A stretch of 22,365 nt of DNA from a virus. Below the pieces are notes generated by a model that saw nothing but the letters and a program-made list of their open reading frames with translations, was not told where the DNA came from and made no database searches. The first letter of the stretch is position 1. Every line of letters begins with the position of its first letter. Location: the UHGV virus genome UHGV-1636268. One strand, given 5' to 3'. Positions 1-22,033 of this stretch are shown here, piece after piece. The position numbers were made by a program, and so were the translations under genes.

Positions 1-230
1 TACCCCCACCTACCCCCACCTACCTGCACAATTCTAAAATGATTTTTCTTGCCCGACCTGATTTTTCTCTGCACGTTTTGAAAATGAAAAAACCCTTTGG
101 AGATTACCTGCACAGTTTGAAAATGAATTTTCTCTTTGGAGTTCAAAATTTTCTCTATAGATTCCTCTACAGAACTCTACCTGCACAAATCTGAAATGAA
201 AAAGCCCTCCTTACCTGAAAAATTTACCAG
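1..230. repeat. Cluster of degenerate direct repeats at window edge: tandem 10-mer TACCCCCACC x2 (1-20); ~39-bp unit CTGCAC-N2-TTTGAAAATGAA-N6-CTTTGGAG in two tandem copies (69-107, 108-146); partial copies at 22-42 and 179-207
   Basis: Read directly: ACCTGCACA at 22-30, 106-114, 179-187; (T)TGAAAATGA at 34-42, 78-87, 117-126, 191-199; CTTTGGAG at 94-101 and 133-140. No minus-strand ATG in 1-272. Confidence 0.6.
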
Positions 231-272
231 ATAAGAAAGGCTTAGTCTATTGTGAATATACTACGAAGTTTC

Positions 273-1058
273 TTAGTTCTTTGCGTCTAAGAAGGTAAGT
301 TCTGGTGAAGAGAAGATTAACTCAATATCCTCATCAGTTCTTGCATAGATATAAGCATCTGCATCACTGCCAAATGTTACTGCAATTCTGTGATTGCTCT
401 TCGACAGGTGGGTAACTAGAGCGTTACTTAGAGACATCTTTTCAACCGGAGGGTTACTTTGATGTATCTTACCTTTTCTTCGTCTGAAGAGGGTAACTGC
501 GTTATCTGTGAACACAACTACACCTGCAAAGTATTCTGGTTCACAGTAGTTTTTCCAACCTGAGTGTAACTCATTATACATTTTTGCTTCATAGACATAC
601 AGATAAACATCTACACTCTTCATCACCTGATTAATGATAACTGTGACAGCTTGAGGGTCAAGTCCACCGATACCTGCACCAATCATAGGTAGACCAACTT
701 TCTTCAACTGGTTAACTTCACAGTATCTGTTAAGCTGTTTCAAGGATGACTCTAAAGCACTGTATCGGGCATCTTTACCAGTATGAAGTTGGGTGTAAAG
801 GTTAGCTATACGGCCTTGTTTTAAACGTGCTACAGAGAAATTACCTAGTAAATTTTCACAGGGTTTGTGACGAATGCCACCTGCAAACAGGTAAACTTCT
901 GTGTCAGTATCATACACTTTTGGATAACGCTTAGAAATAGTTGCTGCAATACCTGCACCCATGAAATTCATACAGTTGCAACCATGACCAATGATATCAA
1001 ATTTGCCTTTATCAAATGCGTCAAAGATATCACCTTTGATGATTTTTACAATACCCAT
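273..1058 (-). CDS. Macro-domain protein (ADP-ribose binding/processing family) with ~100-aa C-terminal extension of unknown function
   Basis: N-terminal GDIFDAFDKGKFDIIGHGCNCMNFMGAGIAATI fits the macro-domain pattern GDIT...DxIVNxxN...GxGVxxAI. Start trimmed to ATG at 1058..1056 (GGGAGAG SD 8 nt upstream), which overlaps the upstream stop as TAATG; the track's 1073 start is a TTG extension. Confidence 0.65.
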   Translation of the reverse strand: MGIVKIIKGDIFDAFDKGKFDIIGHGCNCMNFMGAGIAATISKRYPKVYDTDTEVYLFAGGIRHKPCENLLGNFSVARLKQGRIANLYTQLHTGKDARYSALESSLKQLNRYCEVNQLKKVGLPMIGAGIGGLDPQAVTVIINQVMKSVDVYLYVYEAKMYNELHSGWKNYCEPEYFAGVVVFTDNAVTLFRRRKGKIHQSNPPVEKMSLSNALVTHLSKSNHRIAVTFGSDADAYIYARTDEDIELIFSSPELTFLDAKN

Positions 1059-1258
1059 TAACATCTCTCCCAAGATTCTTTATCTTCTGAAGGTTTTACA
1101 CGTTGCCCTTCGTGGTCTACCCAGATACACCCACAACCTTCACAGATTACTGGCATTGCATAACCAGCTTTAAAGTCATCTTCAGTGATAAGACCTTCTA
1201 AGTCACCTGTATCACGTCCGAACATTTCGATAGAACAGTCTTTACAGAAGTCAGCCAT
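1058..1258 (-). CDS. Small Cys-rich protein (CxxC ... CxGCxC), putative zinc-binding
   Basis: 66-aa ORF with ATG start; cysteines at 5, 8, 39, 42, 44; stop overlaps the macro-domain start (TAATG). Confidence 0.5.
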   Translation of the reverse strand: MADFCKDCSIEMFGRDTGDLEGLITEDDFKAGYAMPVICEGCGCIWVDHEGQRVKPSEDKESWERC

Positions 1259-1272
1259 ATAATATATATACC

Positions 1273-1500
1273 TTATAGTTCAGTTTCTCGTAATTCTTTA
1301 CCTTCATCATAGAAGCATTTATAGAATGTGTCTATAGAGATTCTGGCAAAGGTGAGGTCTTCAAAGTATTCCTCTGGAGTTGTCCATGTAAAACTAAAAC
1401 TGTCGAGGCTGTAAAATGGTATCACTGTGTCGTGACTCACGAAAACACATGCTGACGTGACTTCTCCAGTATCTTTGTCAATTACCTCTAGAGCTTTCAT
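1273..1500 (-). CDS. Hypothetical protein (75 aa)
   Basis: ATG-initiated ORF in the same-strand gene array; no recognisable motif. Confidence 0.4.
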   Translation of the reverse strand: MKALEVIDKDTGEVTSACVFVSHDTVIPFYSLDSFSFTWTTPEEYFEDLTFARISIDTFYKCFYDEGKELRETEL

Positions 1501-1801
1501 AGCTTACCTTTTCGGTTAGTTCATATAAATCAACATGCTCAATACTGTCGATGTTGATATCAATCTTTTTGAAATGTTCTATCACTTCGTTGTCAGTCAT
1601 CCATATCAGACACCAATGATTCTGGATGGATTCTTCAAGAAGGTCAACACAATCTTTAAAAGTTTTTGTATCACTTCTTGTTCCTACTACTGCAATTGTT
1701 CCATATAACCACTTACCGTTGCCATAGGTCACTTGTGCTACACCAACCTCTTTATCTTTCTCATAGTAAACGGCTACAAAATCTCTTCCATTAATCTGCA
1801 T
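1478..1801 (-). CDS. Hypothetical protein (107 aa)
   Basis: ATG start at 1801..1799, tightly packed with neighbours; no recognisable motif. Confidence 0.45.
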   Translation of the reverse strand: MQINGRDFVAVYYEKDKEVGVAQVTYGNGKWLYGTIAVVGTRSDTKTFKDCVDLLEESIQNHWCLIWMTDNEVIEHFKKIDINIDSIEHVDLYELTEKVSYESSRGN

Positions 1802-1803
1802 AG

Positions 1804-2073
1804 TTACTTCCTCGTTTTAAGAACTGCTAAGATTTCTTTAGAGTCTGGTAAGAACCATGTGTAGTGATTCTCTTTGATTTCTGGATGAGTGTCAACCTTT
1901 ATTTTGCACTCTTTACCAACATGCTTAAGTTGTGCTGTGACACCTTGCATAAAGATATGGCACATCACATTATCCATAATGGTTGGTGAGAAATCAACCC
2001 GCATATAAGTTTCTTTTGGTCGTGGTAGCAGTAAGTACCCTTCTACATAGAAAGTATCTTCGTTCTCTGTCAT
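1804..2073 (-). CDS. Hypothetical protein (89 aa)
   Basis: ATG at 2073..2071 overlaps the upstream stop as ATGA; no recognisable motif. Confidence 0.45.
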   Translation of the reverse strand: MTENEDTFYVEGYLLLPRPKETYMRVDFSPTIMDNVMCHIFMQGVTAQLKHVGKECKIKVDTHPEIKENHYTWFLPDSKEILAVLKTRK

Positions 2074-2339
2074 TGCTGCTTATTCCCTAATAAAATCATG
2101 TCAATAAGGTTATTAGCTTTGATTGTACACTGGTAAAATCCGTCACGGTAGAACTCAAGTGCTGCTGCTACATCACTACCTGTGTTGCCTTTGATAATAT
2201 ACCGTGATTCTTCTTGGGTGTACTTATCACTCTCACTTACTTGGGAGTTTTTGAATGTACTGCTCACTTTGTTCGTTGAACACCCTGACATAGTTATCAG
2301 TAACACAAACATTATAAAACTCTGGCTTAGTTTTTTCAT
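2070..2339 (-). CDS. Putative outer-membrane lipoprotein, candidate o-spanin (start embedded in the upstream gene, different frame)
   Basis: N-terminus MKKLSQSFIMFVLLITMSGC has a signal peptide and lipobox-like MSGC. The first 107 nt lie inside the 2233..2580 ORF in another frame. Not proline-rich, so the call is tentative. Confidence 0.4.
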   Translation of the reverse strand: MKKLSQSFIMFVLLITMSGCSTNKVSSTFKNSQVSESDKYTQEESRYIIKGNTGSDVAAALEFYRDGFYQCTIKANNLIDMILLGNKQQ

Positions 2340-2580
2340 ATGTTAGTACCTCTTTTGTATGCTTATTCTTAGCAAGCACATCTTTCAAATCATTTTTGTA
2401 ATTGGTGCTGAGTGTGGCTAAACCTTCCTGATAAGCATCTTTAGCAACACTTATTAGTTTCTCATTATTTAGCTCAGTTTCAGCAACTTGATAGTCTCTG
2501 TAAGAGTATCCTCCCCAGACACCTGCACCAACTAAGAAAACAATTATGAAAGTAGCTTGACAGAACTCTTTAAATGTCAT
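2233..2580 (-). CDS. Putative type-II membrane protein, candidate i-spanin
   Basis: Single N-terminal hydrophobic helix (ATFIIVFLVGAGVWGGY) followed by a charged, probably helical soluble domain; AGGAGA SD ~8 nt upstream of the ATG; overlaps the downstream lipoprotein ORF. Confidence 0.45.
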   Translation of the reverse strand: MTFKEFCQATFIIVFLVGAGVWGGYSYRDYQVAETELNNEKLISVAKDAYQEGLATLSTNYKNDLKDVLAKNKHTKEVLTYEKTKPEFYNVCVTDNYVRVFNEQSEQYIQKLPSK

Positions 2581-2599
2581 TTAACAATCTCCTAAAATG

Positions 2600-2620
2600 A
2601 AAAAGGCTCCCGAAGGAGCC
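2600..2620 (-). terminator. Rho-independent terminator (GGCTCC-cgaa-GGAGCC hairpin + T5 on minus strand)
   Basis: Perfect 6-bp GC-rich stem 2605-2610/2615-2620 with CGAA loop; plus-strand A-run 2600-2604 gives TTTTT 3' of the hairpin on the minus strand; 13 nt after the stop at 2633. Confidence 0.6.
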
Positions 2621-2632
2621 TGTATCTTAACC

Positions 2633-3097
2633 TTAACCGAGGACTTTAGCAAGGATATTCGCAGCCATCGAAGAAGCTTTTGCAGCAGCAGCTACCCCAG
2701 CTTTGATAGCGTTATCCTTGATAGCAGATACCGTTGCAGCATCAGTAAAGAGATAAGTAGTTGTTTTAGAACCACTTGTAAAGGAAAGCATAAGAGCAGT
2801 TTCCAGATTGAAAGAGCGATACGGAGCACCTTCTTTAACGATACCTTCAGCACCTAATTCTGAGGCCATCCCCATATCATAGATAGTCATCAGGTTTTCT
2901 TTGTGTGCAGTCGTTGAACCAGAACCTTTGACGTGTTTCTTAACATTCAAAAGAGCACGATACTCTCGGATGTTGCCGTCTGCTTTTACATTGACAGCAC
3001 GGAAGATTTTACCCTCAAAGTTGTTCTTGATAATGTTACGAACTACTTCAGATTTGTTTGCCGTAACGTCCAGTGCTACCGTAATGATATTGTTCAT
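2633..3097 (-). CDS. Hypothetical protein (154 aa), Ala/Gly/Ser/Thr-rich
   Basis: ATG start with GAGAGA SD; followed directly by a strong terminator; no recognisable catalytic motif. Confidence 0.55.
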   Translation of the reverse strand: MNNIITVALDVTANKSEVVRNIIKNNFEGKIFRAVNVKADGNIREYRALLNVKKHVKGSGSTTAHKENLMTIYDMGMASELGAEGIVKEGAPYRSFNLETALMLSFTSGSKTTTYLFTDAATVSAIKDNAIKAGVAAAAKASSMAANILAKVLG

Positions 3098-3107
3098 AAG
3101 TTTTCTC

Positions 3108-3803
3108 TCAATGTTTAACTAACATGGTTTTGATGTGTGGAAGGATTCTGTTCACCTTCTGCACATTCTTCTCTGTATCTTCTATAAAACATACTATATT
3201 AAAGTAAGGAAGAATGCAAGACTGAATCATCCTCACTTTCAAACTTTCTGCACTTATAGAGTTAGTTCCAAAACCACGCATAAAAAGCAAGTAATCATGC
3301 TCTATATTGTGCCTTAAAAACATCTCAGTAGGTATTCTCTGAGATTCACCTCTCGCTGTCAAGAGTCCAACAGCAGCATGATTAGCAATTGCATCAATGA
3401 TATTGAAAACATACGTTGGTTTTGCTCTTACAGAGTCAAGAAGATTAGTGTACTGTGAAAATGACCCATCAGTCAACTCCGTTGAACAATCTTCGTGATT
3501 AAAATTTGTAAGAACACCATCGATGTCTGCTAAGATGAGATTCCCTTTTTCTACAAGGTCTTTATTGACTATGACTAAGCTATCACGACTTACACCTACA
3601 GTTTGTCCAGTCTCTTTGTCCACAACGCTCACAATTGGTTCTGATGTGTGGAACTCTTCAAGTGAACATACAACTTCTCTTGCAGTATCTTCAAAATCCC
3701 TGCACTGTTCTGGAGTCCATGCGCAGGAATCAAGACCTAACTCATGAGGGTGTAAGTCGTAAGCATGGCACAGTACTTCATCAGACTTTCTTAATTTTTT
3801 CAT
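3108..3803 (-). CDS. HAD-superfamily phosphatase-like protein, possibly a 5'(3')-nucleotidase, with ~80-aa N-terminal extension
   Basis: LILADIDGVLTN matches HAD motif I (hhhhDxDG); LLTAR and FIEDTEKN are consistent with motifs II and IV. ATG at 3803; overlaps the upstream gene end by 23 nt, so the true start may be downstream. Confidence 0.5.
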   Translation of the reverse strand: MKKLRKSDEVLCHAYDLHPHELGLDSCAWTPEQCRDFEDTAREVVCSLEEFHTSEPIVSVVDKETGQTVGVSRDSLVIVNKDLVEKGNLILADIDGVLTNFNHEDCSTELTDGSFSQYTNLLDSVRAKPTYVFNIIDAIANHAAVGLLTARGESQRIPTEMFLRHNIEHDYLLFMRGFGTNSISAESLKVRMIQSCILPYFNIVCFIEDTEKNVQKVNRILPHIKTMLVKH

Positions 3804-4329
3804 GGTTTACCTTAGAAATATTTGTTGCAAATTCACATTGAGCAATAACTTTCATGTTGTTATAGACATCTTGAGAATATTTCTTAGCTTTAGGGATTCT
3901 GTACGAATACCCAGCATTATATGATGCTAAAACTTTTTGTAAAGTATTCTTTGACTTTGGCTGACCATGCACCTTTGTCCAAAACTCAAGCTCTTTGTGA
4001 GTTTCCTTAGCAGCATAATCAAAGTCTTTTAAGAGTTTCTTTTTAGCCACATTAGGACTAATTTTGTTACGCTTTACAACAGTCTTCAAGTGATTCTGGA
4101 AAATACCATAGTCATGGGTCTTTTTATTCTCTACCTTCAGACCTAACTCTGACTCTTGTAAGGCTATAGCAGCTAGAGTGATACCCCAACCTTTACCCAT
4201 ATTATTCTCACCATACTGGTAAGCTTTTAACATGTTTACTTTTTGGCTAATTGATAGCTCTGGGCAGTCAACTGCATAAGATAAGTGTGCTGTAAACATT
4301 AAGCACAAACCTAGAATCAATTTCTTCAT
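3781..4329 (-). CDS. Secreted soluble lytic transglycosylase (SLT-domain) protein
   Basis: N-terminal signal peptide MKKLILGLCLMFTAHLSYA; SLT family-1 motifs in order: QESELG (catalytic E-S), DYGIFQ (GLMQ-like), ASYNAGYS (AYNxG). Confidence 0.6.
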   Translation of the reverse strand: MKKLILGLCLMFTAHLSYAVDCPELSISQKVNMLKAYQYGENNMGKGWGITLAAIALQESELGLKVENKKTHDYGIFQNHLKTVVKRNKISPNVAKKKLLKDFDYAAKETHKELEFWTKVHGQPKSKNTLQKVLASYNAGYSYRIPKAKKYSQDVYNNMKVIAQCEFATNISKVNHEKIKKV

Positions 4330-4360
4330 TGGTTCCCCTGTTTAGTTTATCGTGACATCA

Positions 4361-4389
4361 ATTATACAGCACTCTGCACAAAATACAAA
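4361..4389 (-). promoter_or_regulatory. Sigma70-like promoter candidate for the SLT transcription unit
   Basis: On the minus strand: TTGTAT (4389..4384), 17-nt spacer, perfect TATAAT (4366..4361); ~30 nt upstream of the ATG at 4329 and immediately after the rIIB terminator. Confidence 0.3.
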
Positions 4390-4390
4390 T

Positions 4391-4412
4391 AAAAAAGGCC
4401 GCCGAAGCAGCC
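4391..4412 (-). terminator. Rho-independent terminator (GGCCGC-cgaa-GCAGCC hairpin flanked by A6/T4 runs)
   Basis: Stem 4397-4402/4407-4412 (5 pairs, 1 mismatch) with CGAA loop; A-run 4391-4396 gives TTTTTT on the minus strand; 17 nt after the rIIB stop. Flanking A/T runs could allow bidirectional function. Confidence 0.55.
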
Positions 4413-4429
4413 TTTTAAGAAATTACTTA

Positions 4430-5539
4430 TTAGATTTCACGTTTACGTTGAGAGATGAGTTCCCCAGCAGTACCAACGATGACATGCAAAGCTTCAGTCT
4501 TACCATCCCATGCTTTCAGAACTTTACGTTGATTATCAACGATTGCTGCAACTTCATAACGGGATGAACGCATCTTCATATCGTTGTAATCAGTCGGAAC
4601 AGATACAACATCTCGTGGATGGACACGAACCTTCAGAATTGTATCCCCTGAGAAGCAACGAACATAATCCCAAGCACCAACATGAAGACCTTGAGAGCAA
4701 GTCACGTTACGGTTATTATCAACCATCCAACGTGGCATTTCTACAATGTTACCCAAATCATTAGGTACTCTGTAGGTGTGGGAGTCAACCAGCTTGCCTT
4801 CACGAGTAGATACTTTCTTCCAACCAATGATGTAGCCTTCTTCATCAATTTCAACATCAAGGTGAGATACAAATCCCCAAAGTTGTTCTACAGAGTCTTT
4901 AGATGGGTTTTCCATCAGTTTTTCGAAGAACATTACAAGACGTTCAAAACCTTTATCACCAGTCTTCATCATGTGAAGAATACGGTCAACCAGAGTAGAA
5001 CGCATCTCAACAGCACCATAGAATAGCTTGTCACCTTTGATTGTGATAGCACCCTGAGTGAAGTTTTCGATAGACTTACGAATGTTCATTAGTTCAAATG
5101 CTTTCTTGAACTCGCCTTTCACAACGTGAACTACAATTTCTTGATAGTTCGGATGAGTAGACTCAACAATTTCAGATTCTGAACCGTAAGTCATAATTAC
5201 AGAGTCACCAGTAATCATGTACTCAATCTTGCCATCTTTCTGCATAGCTTCGTGCAGTTTATTTACTGGAGCTTTCTGTACAGCCTCTTTAACAACCTTT
5301 TTAACTGGCTTGTCAGCTTTCTTTTTAACTGATTTAGCAACTTGCTTCAAAGTCTTCGTAGCTGGTTTAGAAGTCACCTTCTTATTCCCTTTTAAGGTTG
5401 CTTCATGACGCTCTACAGCACGACCGACTGAACGGGTTGAGGTGTTAAATTTCTGTGCAATAGCGGTTTTAGTCAGCTTGCCCTCTTTAACCAGTTTGTA
5501 AATTTCTGCGTCAATCTGTGCTTTAGTTTTAGTAGTCAT
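4430..5539 (-). CDS. rIIB: RIIB-like protein
   Basis: Immediately downstream of the rIIA-like gene; size (369 aa) and segments such as CSQGLHVGAW and HPRDVVSVPTDYNDMKMRSSRYEV resemble T4 RIIB as recalled from memory; not checked by alignment. Confidence 0.65.
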   Translation of the reverse strand: MTTKTKAQIDAEIYKLVKEGKLTKTAIAQKFNTSTRSVGRAVERHEATLKGNKKVTSKPATKTLKQVAKSVKKKADKPVKKVVKEAVQKAPVNKLHEAMQKDGKIEYMITGDSVIMTYGSESEIVESTHPNYQEIVVHVVKGEFKKAFELMNIRKSIENFTQGAITIKGDKLFYGAVEMRSTLVDRILHMMKTGDKGFERLVMFFEKLMENPSKDSVEQLWGFVSHLDVEIDEEGYIIGWKKVSTREGKLVDSHTYRVPNDLGNIVEMPRWMVDNNRNVTCSQGLHVGAWDYVRCFSGDTILKVRVHPRDVVSVPTDYNDMKMRSSRYEVAAIVDNQRKVLKAWDGKTEALHVIVGTAGELISQRKREI

Positions 5540-5588
5540 CTTATTACTCTCTCTTGTTAGTTAATAAATCATTTTGTGATGCTATTTT

Positions 5589-5608
5589 AAGGGGCTTTGA
5601 AGCCCCTT
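5589..5608 (-). other. Stable hairpin between rIIA and rIIB (AAGGGGC-tttgaa-GCCCCTT) with no T-run
   Basis: 7-bp stem 5589-5595/5602-5608; the sequence 3' of it on the minus strand is AAAATAGC, so it is not a canonical terminator. Possible RNA processing or stability element, or partial attenuator. Confidence 0.3.
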
Positions 5609-5618
5609 GTCAAACACT

Positions 5619-7985
5619 TTAATCATAAATTGTAGTCCCTTCTGGAACACATTTTACATCAAAGCCTAAGAACTTACTCACTTCGATGGGTGACACTTTA
5701 TTCCAATCTAAATGAGAAAGCAAGAAGTTTTCTTGTTTTCTTTTTGAAAGGTAGTTTGTCACCTTAATGACCATACGGTCACCAGCTTTCTTAATTTTCT
5801 TGTAAAGCTTTGTATCATTGTCAAGACAGTCTTTCAAAGTTTTCAATACACTAATAGTATAAGTGTATGCAAATGGTGCAGCAACGTATTGGATTTTACC
5901 GAACATTGCCTCTACAGCATCTTCATTTCCTTCTAGGAAGATAGTTTTGTTTGTATCCCGTGAATAGCAATAGCCACGAGAAATCTTCCTGTTATTGAAT
6001 GTAAAGTTTCTGGCAATAATCCAGCTACTTGTAAGGTCAAGAACACCATTCATGTAGATGCGTGTCATATACCTGTTATGATTAATCCAATGAACATCAG
6101 TTAAGCTGTCGTTCAAGAGCTTCTCATCTACTTCAATCCAGTCTTCTGGTATCTTTTTCCAATTTGCTTTTCGGAAAACATAGACTGTCTTTCCAATAAC
6201 ATTAGCAACTGACTTAGCTACATCTTCTGGTGATGAGCAAAAACATTCACCATCAACTGTGTCACCAATTGCCTTAATGTAAAGCTGAGGTTCTTCAATT
6301 GTGTCTAAGTCCTCTGACACCTCTTTGTAGGAGGCTACACCTTCTGCTGGAACAGCTTTCCAGAGTTTTACAACACCTCTTACAGCTTCTTTACGCTGGT
6401 AATGGTGTTCCTTATCAGACATTTTCACAATCTTTAACAAGCTTTTATCAAGTTTGTGTAGATTGATTAAATCATCTAACTCTTTTTCAGTCGAGAATAC
6501 AAACACAATCCCATTGTATCTGTGAAACAGACTTGACTCACTGGCGTAGTCTCGACATGCACCACGCAAGATTTGATTGCGACCTACAGTCTTCTCAGTA
6601 CCATTTTTATTGCGACGGTCATTAATCACGAACAAAAACTGTTCAATTTGGCTTTTACGCATTGCGCCAAAGATATTGAACATACTTGCCTCTTGAGTGT
6701 AGGAAAGTGCTGTTGCACGAATCTTACTCTCTAAAGAGTTGAACTTGACATAAGCAACTGGATTATAAAGATAATCTACTTTAGGGATATTGTTCCCGTT
6801 CCTATCAACCTTAATATTACCTTTGCCGTCACGTTCATAAATGACTGAGCCGTCTTCTGCGTAGATAATTCCACGACGAATGTTTAGCAATTCTTCTTCC
6901 AGAGAATCAAGCTTAACGCCACCCCACTCTAGCTTTGGACACACAGCATTAAACATCTCTCGTGAGTTCAAACGTAACTCAGCATAAGCCTGTGCAGCAT
7001 CCATGAGTGTAGGTTGGCTATTAACTTTCTTGATAACATCCTTTGTAATGGCTTCAGTTATCTTTTTAGTAGCCTCAATGATAACATTTTTTGTCGTGTC
7101 ATTCATCTGCAATGCTTCACGAGAAGCTGCAATAGCAACTGAACCAATAGGCATGTAGATGTTTACAAGGTCTACGCTCCTACGGAAAAATTCTGGCAAT
7201 ACTTTGAAGAAATCATCACCAAGTAACGCTTCCATGTTAACAGGGTAGGCAATGTTACCCATCACCACATTAAACTCTGTCCTGTTACCACTAGAACGCC
7301 AGCTTTGCTTATGAATCATGGCATCATAAACACCCTCTTCACGGGCAATGACGTTCATATCTGCTAATACATCGTCGTACACAATATTACTTTCTGGTTT
7401 TACAGCAAAGTATGAGTATACATTACCAGCTTCTTCAAAGAACTTTGAGATACGGTGGTCAGCAACTGCCACACGTACAGCTAAACCATTAGGTTCATTT
7501 GTTTGGTTAGTAGTAAGCTTAGTTACTTGAGGGATACCATTCTCAAGGTAAACAGAGTACTTATTAACAACACCATCAACATAGCTAGATACTGTGAATG
7601 ACTGAGCAATTGCAAACGGTGACTTTGAGCCGATGCCCATTGCACCAATGTAGTCATTAGAGTCATTCTTCGTAGAAGCCCCGTAGTTCAGATACAAACT
7701 CATTACTTTGTCATGGGTTAAACCAGTTCCAAAGTCACGGACTTCAAAGTAAGGCTCAAATCGAGTAGGCAAATGCACATGGAACGGGATGTTTTCTTTT
7801 CCAGCTTCTTTCTGAGCATCTACTGCGTTACATGACAGTTCACGAATCACTGCCCTTTCTTTAAACGTGTATACACCAGAACTCAAAAGGCTGAACATTT
7901 CAGGTGTCATTGTAATCTGTGCTTGAGACGTCTCTAAAGAAGTTGAACTCTTAATCACTTCTGCGTGGTCGTTTACCATGCGCAT
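5619..7985 (-). CDS. rIIA: RIIA-like protein with N-terminal GHKL (histidine-kinase-like) ATPase domain
   Basis: GHKL motifs near the N-terminus: N-box ELSCNAVDA, G1 box VRDFGTGL, G2 box GAMGIGSKS. Size (788 aa) and position next to rIIB match T4 rIIA. Confidence 0.8.
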   Translation of the reverse strand: MRMVNDHAEVIKSSTSLETSQAQITMTPEMFSLLSSGVYTFKERAVIRELSCNAVDAQKEAGKENIPFHVHLPTRFEPYFEVRDFGTGLTHDKVMSLYLNYGASTKNDSNDYIGAMGIGSKSPFAIAQSFTVSSYVDGVVNKYSVYLENGIPQVTKLTTNQTNEPNGLAVRVAVADHRISKFFEEAGNVYSYFAVKPESNIVYDDVLADMNVIAREEGVYDAMIHKQSWRSSGNRTEFNVVMGNIAYPVNMEALLGDDFFKVLPEFFRRSVDLVNIYMPIGSVAIAASREALQMNDTTKNVIIEATKKITEAITKDVIKKVNSQPTLMDAAQAYAELRLNSREMFNAVCPKLEWGGVKLDSLEEELLNIRRGIIYAEDGSVIYERDGKGNIKVDRNGNNIPKVDYLYNPVAYVKFNSLESKIRATALSYTQEASMFNIFGAMRKSQIEQFLFVINDRRNKNGTEKTVGRNQILRGACRDYASESSLFHRYNGIVFVFSTEKELDDLINLHKLDKSLLKIVKMSDKEHHYQRKEAVRGVVKLWKAVPAEGVASYKEVSEDLDTIEEPQLYIKAIGDTVDGECFCSSPEDVAKSVANVIGKTVYVFRKANWKKIPEDWIEVDEKLLNDSLTDVHWINHNRYMTRIYMNGVLDLTSSWIIARNFTFNNRKISRGYCYSRDTNKTIFLEGNEDAVEAMFGKIQYVAAPFAYTYTISVLKTLKDCLDNDTKLYKKIKKAGDRMVIKVTNYLSKRKQENFLLSHLDWNKVSPIEVSKFLGFDVKCVPEGTTIYD

Positions 7986-8560: not shown

Positions 8561-10342
8561 TTAAAGCTGCTTGTCAATATTATTTCGAATATCACCAAGA
8601 GTTGTGTAACCGAACTGCTCAGAGTCGCTAAAGACTAGACGCAAAGCACAAGCTGGGTGTTCAAGTGCATCTGCAAAGCTCTGGAACCCATAGCCATCTA
8701 CAGCTTTCAGATTTTCACAATCCCACATAGGTGCTACACCACCAAAAGCAGACTTCTTAACACCACTATCTGTTTTAGGGTCTTTTGCAAGCATAATCTC
8801 TTTACCACCAATGCTTGCAAGAGTTGCTTTGACAGCAAATGCAAAGGTGTCACGAGTCATGTACTGGTAAGTGTAAGAACCTACACCAAACACTACGTTA
8901 GAGCTTGCAAAACCAATTTCATACAAACGCTTCAGTATTTCGTTTGCACGTTCCAACGTGATAGAGTCGCCATAAATAAGCCCGATATGCTCATCCAGTA
9001 CTTTAAAACCTTTAGAGTTGATAGTTCCTCCAAAGATGTTATACAGTGTCTTAATAGCTCCATCAATCTCCGCTACAGGACGTGTTACAACGTTTGCAGA
9101 GCCGTTGATGTAAGCATCTTTCAGCAACACTGTATCGGCTACTTCAAAGTCTTCTCTGTCAACAACCATTTCGTAGCCTTCTGACAGTAGCCATCCAGCA
9201 ATACCATAGTTAATGTTTTCAAGCTTCATGTTCAGGACAGAGTTCAGCATTGTATCACTTGCCTCTAGCTTGCTTAGGTGCTCGTAATAAGCCTTTTTAG
9301 CACACTCTAAGTGGATTGCTTTGTAACCTGTGACAATATGTACAGGGTCTCCAGAGTCAGGGCGAATTACCAGTTTACCATCACGTTCCATAATTTCTTT
9401 ACGGAGTGCTGGTAAGATTTCTGACACAGTTCTCCAGAAGTTATAAGTATCTGAAACAACACTTGCAATACCAGTTGGGTAAGTTTCTGTTAAGAAACGA
9501 CGGAAGGTTTGTAACTCACCTTTAAAGCGTCTTTCTTCTTCAATCAACTCATTACCACCTTCCCAAGCAATGTTTGCACACATTACAGAGTGCTCAGTGG
9601 CTGGTACAGAGCTACCAATATCAGAGATTGGGTAAGACTGTCCATAGATTCGTTTAGCCGTATACACAGCAGGGAAGCTATCAGTTCCTTTAAAGCTGGT
9701 TAAGTGGCCTACAGCGTTAAATGCGTCATCAGTAAAGCCGGACATACCACGCATAGCAAAGTCATGGCACTGATAAGGTAAATGTAAGTCGTTGTCGCAA
9801 GTAAGGTCAGCCCACTTCTTACAGATGCGTTTATAATGCAATGCAATAGTTGCAATGGTACAAGCCTTCCAAATCTCAGCAGAGAAAGCATCTTCCAGAT
9901 ACCCCGCTACCCAATGGAAACCTGAAACAGTGTTCTGGAAGACAATCATTGGGACACGCATAGGGACAACTGTACCTTCTTCTACCGCGTATACTTCAAC
10001 TGGTAGATAACCTAAGTCGTGAAGTGCTTCCCAATGCTCTCGACCGATAGCATCTTTACCCAGAACACCATTCATGACTTCTAAGATTTCGTCAATTGCT
10101 TCTTTTTTATCACGTTCAAAGAAAGTGGCGTTCCAGTGGTCTATCAAGTAATCTTTAACAAAACGTTGAATACCAAAAGCCACTACACCGTCAATTGCTA
10201 AAGGGCTGTTAAACCATTTGTCACTACGTGGTGTCAGGTTGAACATCAAGTATTCTGTTGCACTAGGGTACTGGTAAACATGGCCAGACTTGTAAGCATC
10301 CGCGTTTAAACCTGCTGGTACTGCATAAAGTGATTTAGTCAT
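8561..10342 (-). CDS. nadV: Nicotinamide phosphoribosyltransferase (NAMPT/NadV) family protein; candidate nicotinamide ADP-ribose transferase (Namat-type) given its Prs-like partner
   Basis: N-terminus NADAYKSGHVYQYP parallels the NAMPT N-terminal signature (human ATDSYKVTHYKQYP, recalled). ATG start verified. At 593 aa it is ~100 aa longer than the ~490-aa canonical enzyme. Lies directly downstream of the Prs-like gene. Confidence 0.8.
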   Translation of the reverse strand: MTKSLYAVPAGLNADAYKSGHVYQYPSATEYLMFNLTPRSDKWFNSPLAIDGVVAFGIQRFVKDYLIDHWNATFFERDKKEAIDEILEVMNGVLGKDAIGREHWEALHDLGYLPVEVYAVEEGTVVPMRVPMIVFQNTVSGFHWVAGYLEDAFSAEIWKACTIATIALHYKRICKKWADLTCDNDLHLPYQCHDFAMRGMSGFTDDAFNAVGHLTSFKGTDSFPAVYTAKRIYGQSYPISDIGSSVPATEHSVMCANIAWEGGNELIEEERRFKGELQTFRRFLTETYPTGIASVVSDTYNFWRTVSEILPALRKEIMERDGKLVIRPDSGDPVHIVTGYKAIHLECAKKAYYEHLSKLEASDTMLNSVLNMKLENINYGIAGWLLSEGYEMVVDREDFEVADTVLLKDAYINGSANVVTRPVAEIDGAIKTLYNIFGGTINSKGFKVLDEHIGLIYGDSITLERANEILKRLYEIGFASSNVVFGVGSYTYQYMTRDTFAFAVKATLASIGGKEIMLAKDPKTDSGVKKSAFGGVAPMWDCENLKAVDGYGFQSFADALEHPACALRLVFSDSEQFGYTTLGDIRNNIDKQL

Positions 10343-10389
10343 CTTTTAATCTCTCTCTCAAAATGGGTCTTTCAAGCCCCTATAAAGTT

Positions 10390-11271
10390 TCAATCAAGGT
10401 TTGCTACAGTAACTTGACTGTAATGTGTTAAGCCACGGTCTTTAGCTTCGCCTAAAGAGTTTGTAGTGTAAATATGGTCGATACCATTGTCAAGAAGGTT
10501 TTCAACATCTTTAGAGAAGATACCATGTGTTACATAAAGCTCTACACGTTTTGCACCTGCTTCACGTAGGTGTTTAGCTGCCTCTACGAAGGTTCGACCA
10601 CCATCACAGATATCATCAAGAATCATGACGGTTTTATCGGTCAAATCAACATCGTCAAGGATTCGCATACCAGTGATTTCTCCAGTCTTAAGATTTCGCA
10701 CCTTAGACATTGTGATATATGGTTTATCCACCTCTTTAGCAGTCTCTGCAATCTTCTTAGAAGCACCTGCATCTGGGGCTACTAAGTAATCAATCAGAGG
10801 GTCATTTGCGTAATGGACTGCAATCTCCTTTTGAGGAATACTCTGGAAGCAATTGAAAAGGTTATCTGGAACGTAACTATGAGGGTCAACTGCACAGACT
10901 GCATCAAAACCCATTGCATTAACCTGTTGTGCAAACACTTTCAAAGCTGCTGCATCACCTTTAAACATGTGACGGTCGTAACGTGCATTTGGCAAATAGT
11001 AAAAGATAGCAGTCTTCATAGCAAACTTATGAGGTACTAAATCATCAATTGCCTCTTTAGCAAGTGCCACAGCAAATAATGTGTCTTTGTCATAACCCTT
11101 TATAATCATAATCACGTTGTTGATGGATGATGCAGCATAAGCAGTAAAATCAACAAACTCTGGTGAAAAATGTCCACCAATCTCACCAGAAGGAAATTGG
11201 ACGATGTTAAACTCTTCTTCGTGAGTCCCTTTAGTTGGTGAATGAACTGTAACACGGATAGATGTTTTCAT
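10390..11271 (-). CDS. prs: Ribose-phosphate pyrophosphokinase (Prs) family protein; candidate ADP-ribose pyrophosphokinase (Adps-type)
   Basis: Prs-family motifs: YLPNARYDR (cf. E. coli YFGYARQDR), VCAVDPHS (cf. VLTVDLHA), and the PRPP-binding loop VMILDDICDGGRTFVEAAKHLREAGAKRV (cf. [28 protein letters not shown]). Start trimmed to ATG at 11271..11269 (GAGAGA SD); the track's 11286 start is TTG. Confidence 0.8.
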   Translation of the reverse strand: MKTSIRVTVHSPTKGTHEEEFNIVQFPSGEIGGHFSPEFVDFTAYAASSINNVIMIIKGYDKDTLFAVALAKEAIDDLVPHKFAMKTAIFYYLPNARYDRHMFKGDAAALKVFAQQVNAMGFDAVCAVDPHSYVPDNLFNCFQSIPQKEIAVHYANDPLIDYLVAPDAGASKKIAETAKEVDKPYITMSKVRNLKTGEITGMRILDDVDLTDKTVMILDDICDGGRTFVEAAKHLREAGAKRVELYVTHGIFSKDVENLLDNGIDHIYTTNSLGEAKDRGLTHYSQVTVANLD

Positions 11272-11282
11272 AGTTTTGTCTC

Positions 11283-11561
11283 TCAATCAAAGGTTACGTT
11301 TGTTACTGCCATTGCAGATTTGCATTTTACAGGGTCTACAACGTGGTAAAGTACACTACAGTTACCTGTGCTGTCTGGTACAGGTTTTACCCATTGATGC
11401 TTTATAGTTGGCTCTCCTAAGTCTTTGTAAGAACCATCTGTAAAGTTGTTTACCATCTCAAGTGCAATTGGTTCTGGAACATGACCACGTATCATGTACA
11501 TTTCACAACCATTACCACCTTCACTGACTAATGGTAAAATTTCCCACTTCTCTTTAGCCAT
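11283..11561 (-). CDS. Hypothetical protein (92 aa)
   Basis: ATG start; sits directly upstream of the Prs-like gene; no recognisable motif. Confidence 0.45.
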   Translation of the reverse strand: MAKEKWEILPLVSEGGNGCEMYMIRGHVPEPIALEMVNNFTDGSYKDLGEPTIKHQWVKPVPDSTGNCSVLYHVVDPVKCKSAMAVTNVTFD

Positions 11562-20981: not shown

Positions 20982-21297
20982 GGTATTTCTCCAAGTTTCT
21001 TTTTAGATATAACCAACCGTAGTCAGTCCTTTCTACACCCATAAAGAGCGGAGCCATCACAACTTTACCGAAAGTATTCCTGTGTTGGCAGATTTCAAAA
21101 GAATATTCTTTCTCAATATCAATCCCATATTTGTACAGGACTGCTTTTAAAACTTGTTCATTGTCCAGAAGTGTATCTGGAGTCTCACCATACTTTTCTA
21201 GTAACGGGTCATTCATAAACACCGTCATAGAAATATTGTAGTTTGAGAAGTGGCTCTTCTGAGCCACACCCTCTTTATTAATGTTCTGTGAATCCAT
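20974..21297 (-). CDS. Hypothetical protein (~107 aa)
   Basis: Start trimmed to ATG at 21297..21295 (the track's start is TTG at 21306); no recognisable motif. Confidence 0.45.
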   Translation of the reverse strand: MDSQNINKEGVAQKSHFSNYNISMTVFMNDPLLEKYGETPDTLLDNEQVLKAVLYKYGIDIEKEYSFEICQHRNTFGKVVMAPLFMGVERTDYGWLYLKRNLEKYRV

Positions 21298-22033
21298 TAT
21301 AACCAACCCCTTTTAACCAGCACTTCAGGTTATTAGCATCATAATTCAGTTTCGGGTATGAGGTTACATGAAACTGCTCACCATCATAATAGACAATATC
21401 TGCAATCCATAGTCCATTCTCTTTACAGAAGTCTTTATCTGCTTTAGAGGTAATTGGATTAACTTCTACAAAACCATCTACACCCAAATCCTTTAAGCTA
21501 CCTACAATACCTTTGCAGATAACGCATGTCTCAGATACTACCACAAAAAGTTCTTGGCTTTCAAGTTCTACAATGTATTCACCAAGCTGTACTTTAGGGA
21601 GATTCGATTGCTTCATAATCTTCCCATCTGCTGCACGAACAATGGCATACCACTCTTTACCATCAACTACTGACATTCTGATAATACACTCTTGACCAGT
21701 ACGCTTCTCAATATCTGCAAGACGTTTTAAAGCTTCTTCATAATCGTCTGTGTACTTCAGGTCATTATTACGGCAAACAGCTTTCATAGCACCGTTATGG
21801 TCATGTTGTGACAGGTAAATCAAACCGTCAAGAACATATTGCAAATCTGCCTGAGCATCCAGTGTCTCAATGGGGTCTTTCTCTTCAATTGCTTTTACAA
21901 GCTCTTTTGCTTCTTCAAGCATACACAGAGATTGAGATTTTAAAGATTCCCAATACTCATCACTGTAAGGTTGCTTTTGAGTGTTTCCACAACGAAGGTT
22001 CCAGTTTTTTACTGATTCTCTTGAGTTAAACAT
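21278..22033 (-). CDS. Hypothetical protein (251 aa); N-terminal region weakly MazG-like (all-alpha NTP pyrophosphohydrolase), C-terminal domain unknown
   Basis: ATG start; the segment LEEAKELVKAIEEKDPIETLDAQADLQYVLDGL resembles the MazG/HisE-type EExxE...DxxD metal-binding helices. Product call is tentative. Confidence 0.45.
   Translation of the reverse strand: MFNSRESVKNWNLRCGNTQKQPYSDEYWESLKSQSLCMLEEAKELVKAIEEKDPIETLDAQADLQYVLDGLIYLSQHDHNGAMKAVCRNNDLKYTDDYEEALKRLADIEKRTGQECIIRMSVVDGKEWYAIVRAADGKIMKQSNLPKVQLGEYIVELESQELFVVVSETCVICKGIVGSLKDLGVDGFVEVNPITSKADKDFCKENGLWIADIVYYDGEQFHVTSYPKLNYDANNLKCWLKGVGYNGFTEH

What the first reader, a model, noticed from the sequence alone, without database searches (positions are those of the whole stretch)
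273..1058. Macro-domain protein with novel C-terminal extension in the same region as the NAD module
The N-terminal ~160 aa fit the macro-domain signature (GDIFD...DIIGHGCNCMNFMGAGIAATI), followed by ~100 aa with no motif I recognise. Macro domains bind or hydrolyse ADP-ribose derivatives: they remove ADP-ribosylation and process ADP-ribose-1-phosphate or O-acetyl-ADP-ribose. In a phage that also carries an ADP-ribose/NAD+ module, such a protein could reverse host ADP-ribosylation, degrade ADP-ribose-derived immune signals, or feed ADP-ribose into salvage.
Basis: partly seen in the sequence, partly recalled or inferred. Interest (0 to 1): 0.6.

Follow-up and report, generated by a model that had tools for sequence, protein, structure and literature searches.

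The report
Two-domain phage macrodomain counter-defence hydrolase
This Felix O1-like phage gene encodes an apparently intact ADP-ribose-cleaving macrodomain, related to two recently characterised phage anti-defence enzymes, fused to a 105-residue domain found only in this phage subfamily and of unknown function.

Summary
A 261-aa ORF lies at 273-1058 on the minus strand of a Felixounavirus early region. Residues 1-156 are a genuine macrodomain: Pfam scores it above threshold, and the model matches TARG1, DarG and Poa1p. Residues 157-261 are a conserved, purifying-selected domain with no sequence or fold relative outside Ounavirinae.

The "NAD module" is NARP1 (Adps plus Namat), 7.5 kb and 12 genes away.

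The macrodomain belongs to one phage family that holds T4 Tk.4/AdfM (needed against DarTG2, which ADP-ribosylates DNA thymidines) and Vibrio phage Adpp (ADPR-1''-phosphate phosphatase that rescues NARP1 from aRES). The residues invariant in my 15-sequence family alignment are all present (H25, N28, Q90, glycine loops). The TARG1/DarG catalytic lysine is replaced by Gln, as in SCO6735.

The protein is closer to Tk.4 (36% identity) than to Adpp (28%), but a tree cannot separate the two functions.

Best reading: an early counter-defence hydrolase that cuts the group attached at C1'' of ADP-ribose. The substrate would be DarT2-modified DNA and/or ADPR-1''-P. Either reaction releases free ADPR, which NARP1 can recycle.

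It is a new two-domain variant of a known kind, of moderate interest. The role of the C-terminal domain is open.

The parts
273..1058 (-). Whole ORF: 261 aa plus stop. It is the last gene of a leftward early transcription unit.
   Evidence: ORF list. Identical boundaries are annotated in ESCO50. PHROG 335 matches full length at 2e-114. 258 phage records cover at least 80% of it.
591..1058 (-). N-terminal macrodomain, residues 1-156, of the phage Tk.4(AdfM)/Adpp family within the ALC1-like / SCO6735-like class.
   Evidence: Pfam Macro above cutoff. Foldseek matches TARG1, DarG and Poa1p. The family profile hits SCO6735 and BT1257 at 2e-21. Identity is 36% to a T4-like Tk.4 and 28% to Adpp of phage Gary.
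975..986 (-). Codons H25-G26-C27-N28, the HxCN active-site motif.
   Evidence: H25 aligns with Poa1p His23; the H23A mutant chain 6lfs scores 4 bits lower. It also aligns with Adpp His24, whose H24A mutation abolishes anti-aRES activity. N28 aligns with SCO6735 Asn27, which is needed for activity. Both residues are invariant in the family alignment.
789..803 (-). Codons N86-L-Y-T-Q90. Gln90 occupies the position of the TARG1 Lys84 / DarG Lys80 catalytic lysine.
   Evidence: HMMER alignments to TARG1. Q is invariant in the phage family. The equivalent Gln85 is essential in SCO6735.
657..680 (-). Codons G127-A-G-I-G-G-L-D134, the second glycine-rich (diphosphate-binding) loop. TARG1 Asp125 aligns with G131.
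   Evidence: Alignments. G127 and G132 are invariant.
276..590 (-). C-terminal extension, residues 157-261: linker helix 158-167, then six beta-strands (179-239) and an acidic C-terminal helix (242-249). It is an orphan domain restricted to Ounavirinae.
202..243 (-). Intrinsic-terminator-like hairpin (17 pairs) plus T-run, 30 nt downstream of the stop codon.
   Evidence: Terminator scan. The sequence is conserved in the divergent-allele locus L003.
1058..1258 (-). Upstream 66-aa Cys-rich ORF (CxxC ... CxxCxC) whose stop overlaps the macro start codon (TAATG), so translation is probably coupled. Function unknown.
   Evidence: ORF list and sequence. No Pfam hit. The gene size is conserved in L003.
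8561..10342 (-). Context: Namat (nicotinamide ADPR-transferase) of NARP1, annotated as Nampt.
   Evidence: Pfam NAPRTase/NAMPT_N. NARP1 was defined on genes 79-80 of phage Bas63, which is a Felixounavirus. The region is 90-96% identical across the genus.
10390..11286 (-). Context: Adps (ADP-ribose pyrophosphokinase) of NARP1, annotated as ribose-phosphate pyrophosphokinase.
   Evidence: Pfam Pribosyltran/Pribosyl_synth. NCBIfam Prs models match, most below cutoff.

Best explanation
The gene encodes an early-expressed, two-domain counter-defence enzyme.

The N-terminal macrodomain belongs to the phage Tk.4(AdfM)/Adpp family and appears catalytically intact. It binds ADP-ribose and hydrolyses whatever is attached at C1'' of the distal ribose, releasing free ADP-ribose. 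It does this with a His/Asn/Gln active site of the SCO6735/Poa1p type, not the Lys/Asp dyad of TARG1.

The likely natural substrates are the two shown or genetically implicated for its nearest characterised phage relatives:
(a) ADP-ribose placed on thymidines of phage ssDNA by DarT2 toxins (AdfM-like repair);
(b) ADPR-1''-phosphate made by RES-type NAD+ phosphorylases such as aRES (Adpp-like phosphatase).

Forced to pick one, I rank (a) slightly first: about 0.45 against 0.35, and the two are not exclusive. In both cases the product is free ADPR, which is the input of this phage's own NARP1 pathway (Adps then Namat). The protein would therefore both remove the damage and return the ADP-ribose to NAD+.

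The 105-residue C-terminal beta-rich domain is not needed for catalysis, because Tk.4 and Adpp lack it. I infer it is a fast-evolving protein-binding or targeting module.

Shown here: the fold, the family membership, the conserved catalytic residues, the gene context and the restriction of the C-terminal domain to Ounavirinae. Inferred: the substrates, the in vivo role and the C-terminal function.
For: - Macro fold and profile matches.
- The residues invariant in my alignment of Tk.4-type and 10 NARP1-associated macros are all present: H25, N28, G36, A38, Q90, G127, G132.
- T4 tk.4 knockout sensitises T4 to DarTG2, and the gene was named adfM. The window protein is 36% identical to a T4-like Tk.4, 85 bits, E=2e-25. 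It shares the HGCNC / YTQ / GxGI motif variants with Tk.4.
- DarG is the only hit in NCBIfam and PADLOC, at E~1e-14.
- SCO6735 is the best PDB hit of the family profile. It has Gln85/Asn27 at the positions of Q90/N28, needs both, and cleaves DarT-made thymidine-ADPr.
- Adpp of Vibrio phage Gary converts ADPR-1''P to ADPR and lets NARP1 beat aRES, and H24A kills it. It aligns end to end with the window macrodomain at 28% identity, E=6e-15, with H24 on H25.
- The first 60 residues match Poa1p best of all solved structures.
- NARP1 is in the window and in the same genus as Bas63, where it was discovered.
- The macro gene and NARP1 keep the same relative order in Pectobacterium phage Wc4-1, at about 36-51% protein identity.
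- The gene has an SD, translational coupling and a terminator. Both domains are under purifying selection, with dN/dS 0.10 and 0.13.
Against: - No biochemical or genetic data exist for any Felixounavirus macro protein; literature searches found none.
- The NJ tree leaves all deep nodes unresolved. NARP1-adjacent macros are polyphyletic: phiAbaA1 Adpp groups with an Acinetobacter Tk.4. Neither function can therefore be transferred by phylogeny.
- The gene is 12 genes and 7.5 kb from NARP1, outside the operon criterion for NARP1-AP. No Escherichia or Felix-named phage appears in the published NARP1-AP table.
- About 41% of myoviruses carry a macrodomain. Co-occurrence with NARP1 in one genome is therefore weak evidence, and conserved order in Wc4-1 may be plain synteny.
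- Tk.4's enzymatic activity on DNA is itself only inferred.
- Net charge does not discriminate: Tk.4 is acidic, Adpp proteins vary, and this clade is basic.
- I could not inspect the model coordinates, so the C-terminal domain could occlude or reshape the active site.
Confidence: 0.7

Rival explanations
1. Pure AdfM-type DNA repair enzyme. It removes DarT2-type ADP-ribose from thymidines of replicating phage ssDNA and has no physiological link to NARP1. The C-terminal domain tethers it to DNA or the replisome, or binds DarT2 as the DarG C-terminal domain does.
For: Tk.4 is the closest characterised phage homologue, with shared motif variants. DarG is the only NCBIfam/PADLOC hit. The SCO6735 catalytic Gln and Asn are conserved. 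It is a stand-alone early gene, as in T4. The N-domain is basic (pI about 9), like SCO6735 and TARG1. The macro plus second-domain architecture parallels DarG.
Confidence: 0.3
2. Pure Adpp-type ADPR-1''-phosphate phosphatase encoded away from the operon. It acts in trans to extend this phage's NARP1 into NARP1-AP, defeating aRES and other RES-type NAD+ phosphorylases.
For: Adpp biochemistry and genetics. The His is conserved. The Poa1p-like N-terminal motif is the best PDB match for residues 1-60. NARP1 alone fails against aRES, and aRES occurs in E. coli, Klebsiella and Enterobacter, relatives of this phage group's hosts. NARP1 and the macro gene are co-retained across Ounavirinae.
Against: The gene is not adjacent to NARP1. 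Similarity to Adpp is lower than to Tk.4. All 38 listed NARP1-associated macros seen in Table S1 part 1 are single-domain, 150-170 aa. T4-like phages carry the same family, and T4 is not known to me to carry NARP1 (my knowledge).
Confidence: 0.25
3. Hydrolase of cyclic ADP-ribose immune signals (Thoeris 1''-2' or 1''-3' gcADPR). It would linearise them to ADPR for NARP1, as RyDEP does.
For: These signals also carry a substituent at C1''. RyDEP sets the precedent that NARP1 partners can linearise cADPR isomers. Iyer et al. predicted that phage macros target soluble ADPR derivatives.
Against: No macrodomain of this family has been shown to cleave gcADPR. The known phage enzymes and sponges for these signals are unrelated folds.
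Confidence: 0.05
4. Protein or RNA de-ADP-ribosylase, or O-acetyl-ADPR deacetylase, reversing host or phage ART activity. This is the function implied by some GenBank labels.
For: SCO6735 and TARG1 also de-MARylate proteins. GenBank labels include 'O-acetyl-ADP-ribose deacetylase' and 'ymdB'. A polynucleotide kinase gene lies in the same operon.
Against: The labels are automatic transfers. The sequence is far from YmdB/MacroD: E. coli YmdB (5cb3) is only rank 50 in Foldseek. No ART gene was seen in the window.
Confidence: 0.1
5. Non-catalytic ADP-ribose binder or sponge, or an inactive remnant.
For: Some macrodomains only bind ADPR. pLDDT is low at residues 31-34 in the first glycine loop.
Against: All the residues invariant in my family alignment, including those proven essential in Adpp and SCO6735, are conserved. 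There is strong purifying selection.
Confidence: 0.05

Closest known systems
T4 Tk.4 = AdfM (anti-DarT factor Macrodomain; HIDEN-SEQ preprint 10.1101/2025.11.20.689424)
   Same: Same phage macro family. The window protein is 36% identical over the whole macrodomain to the Tk.4 of a T4-like Tequatrovirus (E=2e-25). It shares the HGCNC, NLYTQ and GxGI motif variants. Both are stand-alone early genes of E. coli myoviruses.
   Different: Tk.4 is a single ~159-aa domain and acidic. This protein carries an extra 105-aa domain and has a basic macrodomain. T4 is not known to me to carry NARP1 (my knowledge). The anti-DarTG2 role is untested here.
Adpp of NARP1-AP (Vibrio phage Gary KNV71_gp137; preprint 10.64898/2026.01.28.702374)
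   Same: Same family, with an end-to-end alignment at 28% identity (E=6e-15) and the catalytic His conserved. The phage also encodes NARP1, which consumes the ADPR product.
   Different: Adpp genes sit within two genes of Adps/Namat; this one is 12 genes away. The Adpp proteins listed are single-domain, 150-170 aa. Their motifs are HQCNC / YGQ / GxGL rather than HGCNC / YTQ / GxGI.
SCO6735 (PDB 5E3B) and BT1257 (2FG1), the Gln-type subclass of ALC1-like macrodomains
   Same: Best solved-structure matches of the family profile, at 2e-21. Gln replaces the TARG1/DarG lysine and an Asn follows the His. Both residues are essential in SCO6735, which cleaves thymidine-ADPr on DNA and de-MARylates proteins.
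   Different: About 25% identity. These are bacterial housekeeping or repair proteins. The mobile loop after the Gln is longer in SCO6735. They have no C-terminal extension.
DarG antitoxin of DarTG2 (NCBIfam NF048014; PDB 5M31/5M3I)
   Same: The macro fold matches with probability 1.00. It is the only NCBIfam/PADLOC family hit. It also has a two-domain layout, with the macrodomain followed by a second domain.
   Different: The score of 54.9 bits is far below the 250-bit cutoff. The catalytic Lys is replaced by Gln. The C-terminal domain is not homologous to the DarT-binding domain of DarG. There is no partner toxin.
Yeast Poa1p (PDB 6LFQ) and human TARG1/OARD1 (4J5S)
   Same: Same fold: TM 0.72 to Poa1p and 0.82 to TARG1. 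The Poa1p N-terminal motif H-x-C-N-C...G-x-G-I-A...R-Y-P-K is nearly identical.
   Different: TARG1 Lys84 and Asp125 are replaced by Gln90 and Gly131. Both are eukaryotic proteins with other cellular roles, and both are single-domain.

Membership tests
Macro domain superfamily (Pfam PF01661) | Profile score above the curated gathering threshold | tested here: met
   30.1 bits against a cutoff of 22, E=5.2e-7, profile positions 2-117 of 118.
Macro domain superfamily (Pfam PF01661) | Three-layer alpha/beta/alpha macro fold | tested here: met
   AF2 model with pLDDT 82. Foldseek gives TARG1 TM 0.82, DarG 0.77 and Poa1p 0.72, all with probability 1.00.
Macro domain superfamily (Pfam PF01661) | Two glycine-rich ADP-ribose-binding loops | tested here: met
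   G34-A-G36-I-A38 and G127-A-G-I-G-G132 align with the family loops. G36, A38, G127 and G132 are invariant. Binding itself was not tested.
TARG1-type glycohydrolase | Lys84/Asp125 catalytic dyad | tested here: not met
   Lys84 aligns with Gln90 and Asp125 with Gly131. The residue numbering follows.
DarG antitoxin (NCBIfam NF048014 / PADLOC DarG) | Equivalog score above cutoff, covering both the macro and the DarT-binding domains | tested here: not met
   54.9 bits against a cutoff of 250. Only profile positions 2-152 of 338 match, and the C-terminal query alone gives no hit.
DarG antitoxin (NCBIfam NF048014 / PADLOC DarG) | Catalytic lysine (Lys80) and an adjacent darT gene | tested here: not met
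   Gln sits at that position (numbering). The neighbours are small phage ORFs, spanins, Pnk and rII genes, with no ART.
SCO6735-like Gln-type ALC1-like macrodomains | Gln at the catalytic-lysine position and Asn two residues after the conserved His | tested here: met
   Q90 and N28 are invariant across the phage family and align with Gln85 and Asn27.
SCO6735-like Gln-type ALC1-like macrodomains | Extended, Lys-bearing mobile loop after the Gln | tested here: inconclusive
   The loop Q90-LHTGKDAR-Y99 is about 5 residues shorter than in SCO6735 but carries K95 and R98. This rests on my reading of the alignments only.
Phage Adpp / NARP1-AP | Poa1p-like macrodomain with the catalytic His (H24 in Gary Adpp) | tested here: met
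   H25 aligns with H24 and with Poa1p H23. H24A abolishes the anti-defence phenotype.
Phage Adpp / NARP1-AP | Encoded within the NARP1 operon, within two genes of Adps/Namat | tested here: not met
   12 intervening genes and 7.5 kb. No Escherichia or Felix-named phage is in Table S1.
Phage Adpp / NARP1-AP | NARP1 (Adps plus Namat) present in the same genome | tested here: met
   Genes at 8561-10342 and 10390-11286. The phage is in the same genus as Bas63, where NARP1 was defined, and the region is conserved across the genus.
Phage Adpp / NARP1-AP | ADPR-1''-phosphate phosphatase activity and rescue from aRES | not testable with these tools
   Needs enzyme assays and plaque assays.
Phage AdfM (T4 Tk.4 type) | Sequence homology to Tk.4 over the whole macrodomain | tested here: met
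   36% identity, 85 bits, E=2e-25 to fPS-2 g111c, which lies between vs and tk. The Kimel homologue is annotated Tk.4.
Phage AdfM (T4 Tk.4 type) | Required for growth on DarTG2 hosts; removes thymidine-ADPr from DNA | not testable with these tools
   The genetic evidence is for T4 only.

The most novel reading that the evidence does not exclude
The Ounavirinae-specific C-terminal domain is a new, fast-evolving toxin-binding module, for example against DarT2 or a RES-type NADase. That would make the protein a two-pronged orphan antitoxin analogous to DarG, combining enzymatic reversal with stoichiometric inhibition.

It would also make the protein a hub that channels ADP-ribose recovered from defence-inflicted damage straight into NARP1 for NAD+ regeneration.

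The whole-gene allele swap seen in an otherwise ~95% identical phage backbone would then reflect an arms race with variable host toxins.
Probability: 0.15. Interest if true: 0.7.

Novelty: new variant of a known kind. Interest (0 to 1): 0.45.

Why it matters
Felixounaviruses, including Bas63 where NARP1 was discovered, are a large group of E. coli and Salmonella phages. If their macro protein is an AdfM and/or Adpp, these phages carry a hidden extra layer of counter-defence. That layer was missed by the operon-based search that defined NARP1-AP.

Counting distal macro genes could substantially raise the fraction of NARP1 phages able to resist RES-type NAD+ phosphorylases. I did not quantify this; I only found that NARP1-region matches occur in 255 phage records.

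It would also show that one macrodomain family serves two different defences, DarTG2 and aRES, with a common product that the phage recycles.

The C-terminal domain is a clean, well-delimited orphan domain whose function can be tested directly. Results would bear on which of these phages can grow on hosts carrying such defences.

Tried and rejected
1. A word-indexed homologue search with the C-terminal 105 aa found nothing, not even its own family. I replaced it with an exhaustive HMMER profile search.
2. That search returned a 2374-aa protein, P0030, with 10 matched stretches. I rejected it as an artefact: it is a highly repetitive adhesin-like protein, with near-identical repeats visible in the sequence, whose weak per-repeat matches to a YDG..VTL stretch add up.
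4. I guessed accession MZ501111 for Bas63; it is a different BASEL phage. The genus of Bas63 was confirmed through taxonomy instead.
5. An NJ tree with 200 bootstraps was meant to decide between AdfM and Adpp. The deep nodes were unresolved and NARP1-adjacent macros were polyphyletic, so it cannot assign function.
6. Net charge and pI as a DNA-versus-small-molecule discriminator were uninformative.
7. The idea that the C-terminal domain is acidic ssDNA mimicry, as in DarG, is not consistently supported. Net charge ranges from -5 to +2, although the last helix is acidic in most alleles.
8. A basic hairpin (RRRKGK) as a nucleic-acid-binding site is not conserved in the divergent alleles.
9. Literature searches for a Felixounavirus macro domain and for Bas63 with DarTG returned nothing.
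10. Locus files from the look-up of encoding contigs were not exported to the script machine, so I compared them with DNA alignment instead.
Full report
**What is there.** The window is the early region of a Felix O1-like phage. Bases 1-6000 are 96% identical to Felixounavirus LF110P4 and about 95% identical to many Salmonella and E. coli Felixounaviruses. All long ORFs run on the minus strand.

The finding corresponds to a 261-aa ORF from ATG 1058 to stop 275-273 on the minus strand. Its ATG overlaps the TAA of an upstream 66-aa Cys-rich ORF (TAATG), and a GGAG lies 8 nt upstream. The same boundaries are annotated in the near-identical phage ESCO50. A 17-pair hairpin with a T-run follows the stop at 243-202, so this is the last gene of a leftward transcription unit. 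That unit also holds rIIA/rIIB, a lysin, polynucleotide kinase and spanins.

**The macrodomain is real.**
- Pfam Macro scores 30.1 bits (cutoff 22, E=5e-7) over nearly the full profile.
- PHROG 335 ('phosphatase') matches full length at 2e-114.
- Sequence search of the PDB finds TARG1/OARD1 (1e-6), DarG macrodomains and Poa1p.
- An AlphaFold2 model built on 12 homologues (pLDDT 82, pTM 0.81) matches TARG1 (TM 0.82), DarG (0.77) and Poa1p (0.72) at probability 1.00.

**Which kind of macrodomain.** I aligned the domain with the second Felixounavirus allele, two T4-type Tk.4 proteins, an rV5-type protein and ten NARP1-associated macro proteins from the published table. This is one family with invariant H25, N28, G36, A38, P46, G72, Q90, G94, P124, G127 and G132.

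The family profile hits SCO6735 (5E3B) and BT1257 best (2e-21), then TARG1, DarG and Poa1p. In those alignments the TARG1 catalytic Lys84 falls on Gln90 and Asp125 on Gly131, so the TARG1/DarG lysine mechanism is excluded. SCO6735 has the same Gln (Gln85) and an Asn (Asn27, equivalent to N28). Both are required for its activity, and it removes DarT-made ADP-ribose from thymidine in DNA as well as from proteins.

The first 60 residues match Poa1p best of all solved structures. H25 falls on the Poa1p histidine; the H23A mutant chain scores 4 bits lower.

**Two characterised phage relatives.**
- T4 tk.4 was the single hit in a transposon screen on a DarTG2 host. Its clean deletion sensitises T4 to DarTG2, and it was named adfM; its action on DNA is inferred. 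The Tk.4 of a T4-like Tequatrovirus, located between vs and tk, is 36% identical to the window protein (85 bits, E=2e-25).
- Adpp of Vibrio phage Gary, a macro gene inside a NARP1 operon, converts ADPR-1''-phosphate to ADPR. It lets NARP1 overcome the aRES NAD+ phosphorylase, and H24A abolishes this. It is 28% identical (57 bits, E=6e-15), and H24 aligns with H25.

The window protein shares the motif variants HGCNC / YTQ / GxGI with Tk.4, rather than the HQCNC / YGQ / GxGL of most Adpp proteins. However, an NJ tree with 200 bootstraps resolves only shallow clades:
- The two-domain Ounavirinae proteins form their own clade at 100%.
- NARP1-adjacent macros fall into at least three clades.
- One of them (phiAbaA1) groups with an Acinetobacter Tk.4 at 83%.

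Function therefore cannot be transferred by phylogeny, and the same enzyme type may well serve both roles. In NCBIfam and PADLOC the only hit is DarG, far below its cutoff and limited to the macro half.

**The NAD module.** Genes at 8561-10342 (593 aa, NAPRTase/NAMPT_N) and 10390-11286 (298 aa, PRPP-synthetase-like) are the pair annotated as Nampt and Prs in all relatives. The NARP1 pathway (Adps then Namat, rebuilding NAD+ from ADPR and nicotinamide) was discovered on exactly this gene pair in phage Bas63, which is a Felixounavirus.

The macro gene is 12 genes and 7.5 kb away. That is outside the +/-2-gene rule used to define NARP1-AP, and no Escherichia or Felix-named phage appears in that paper's table. 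In Pectobacterium phage Wc4-1, an unclassified Ounavirinae, Adps (46% identity), Namat (51%) and a two-domain macro protein (P0011; about 36% identity overall, about 50% over the macrodomain) keep the same relative order. That shows long co-retention but may be ordinary synteny. About 41% of myoviruses encode a macrodomain anyway.

**The C-terminal extension.** Residues 157-261 form a linker helix, six beta-strands and an acidic C-terminal helix.
- No Pfam, NCBIfam or PADLOC family matches.
- A profile of 11 family members searched against 1.84 billion representative proteins finds only the family itself, plus a repeat-protein artefact.
- BFVD returns only the SUSP2 homologue.
- tblastn finds the domain in 256 phage records, all Felixounavirus-, Suspvirus- or Mooglevirus-type phages of Enterobacteriaceae.

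It is a real domain: dN/dS against ESCO50 is 0.13, compared with 0.10 for the macro half. It diverges about twice as fast as the macro half. Against the second allele it is 24% identical where the macro half is about 50% identical. Only three residues are invariant. Tk.4 and Adpp lack it, so it is not needed for catalysis. I infer a binding or targeting role.

**An allele swap.** A metagenomic Felixounavirus contig with the same gene order is about 95% identical to the window up to nucleotide ~17 of the macro ORF. Identity then drops to roughly 55% (40% at the protein level) across the entire two-domain gene. It recovers in the terminator and repeat region downstream. The gene is therefore exchanged as a cassette between otherwise near-identical phages. 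Such cassette exchange suggests an accessory or anti-defence locus (my inference).

**Conclusion.** The protein is best described as a two-domain variant of the phage Tk.4(AdfM)/Adpp macrodomain hydrolases. It most likely releases free ADP-ribose from DarT2-modified phage DNA and/or from ADPR-1''-phosphate, and this phage's NARP1 can turn that product back into NAD+.

Family-level confidence is about 0.7. As the main substrate I put DNA-thymidine-ADPr at about 0.45 and ADPR-1''-P at about 0.35, and the two are not exclusive.

The macrodomain itself is ordinary and already annotated in hundreds of records. The open and moderately interesting points are the orphan C-terminal domain and whether this distal gene functionally extends NARP1.

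Noticed in passing
window 273-1058 compared with L003 10001-10780: The macro ORF behaves as an exchangeable cassette. A Felixounavirus contig is ~95% identical up to nt ~17 of the ORF, roughly 55% identical (40% at protein level) across the whole two-domain gene, and similar again in the downstream terminator/repeat region. The divergent allele also occurs in isolates such as VpaE1_ev035, phiWec172 and finno.
   Followed up: partly
window 1-214: Downstream of the macro terminator lie a tandem TACCCCCACC x2 (1-20) and three to four copies of a ~22-34-nt repeat with core (TAC)CTGCAC-N6-9-GAAAATGA, at 21-49, 69-102, 105-141 and 178-214. On the transcribed minus strand these read TCATTTTC...GTGCAGGTA. 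The copies are partly conserved in L003. They could be promoters or regulatory sites for the next leftward unit.
   Followed up: partly
window 1058-1258 (-): A 66-aa ORF with Cys pairs (C5/C8 and C39/C42/C44), possibly a small zinc-ribbon protein, is translationally coupled to the macro gene through a TAATG overlap. It has no Pfam hit, and a gene of the same size is present in L003.
   Followed up: no
window 8561-11286 (-), compared with L001 14656-17833: Namat and Adps are directly adjacent in the window (48-nt gap). In ESCO50 and several other relatives an HNH homing endonuclease gene is inserted between them.
   Followed up: no
window 3108-3803 (-): A 231-aa ORF annotated in relatives as polynucleotide 5'-kinase/3'-phosphatase (PseT-like) lies in the same leftward unit as the macro gene. 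It gave no Pfam hit at E<=0.01. This is an RNA-repair context that could matter if the macro acts on RNA-linked ADPR products.
   Followed up: no
window 21278-22033 (-): A 251-aa ORF has a PRA-PH (MazG-like nucleotide pyrophosphohydrolase) domain at residues 25-87. Relatives annotate it as phosphoribosyl-ATP pyrophosphohydrolase-like. It is another nucleotide-processing gene in the early region.
   Followed up: no
published Table S1 of 10.64898/2026.01.28.702374 compared with Tk.4-type proteins: The NARP1-adjacent 'Adpp' macro proteins are polyphyletic. One (Acinetobacter phage phiAbaA1) clusters with an Acinetobacter Tk.4 at 83% bootstrap. This suggests that AdfM and Adpp may be overlapping activities of one enzyme family rather than separate lineages.
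   Followed up: partly
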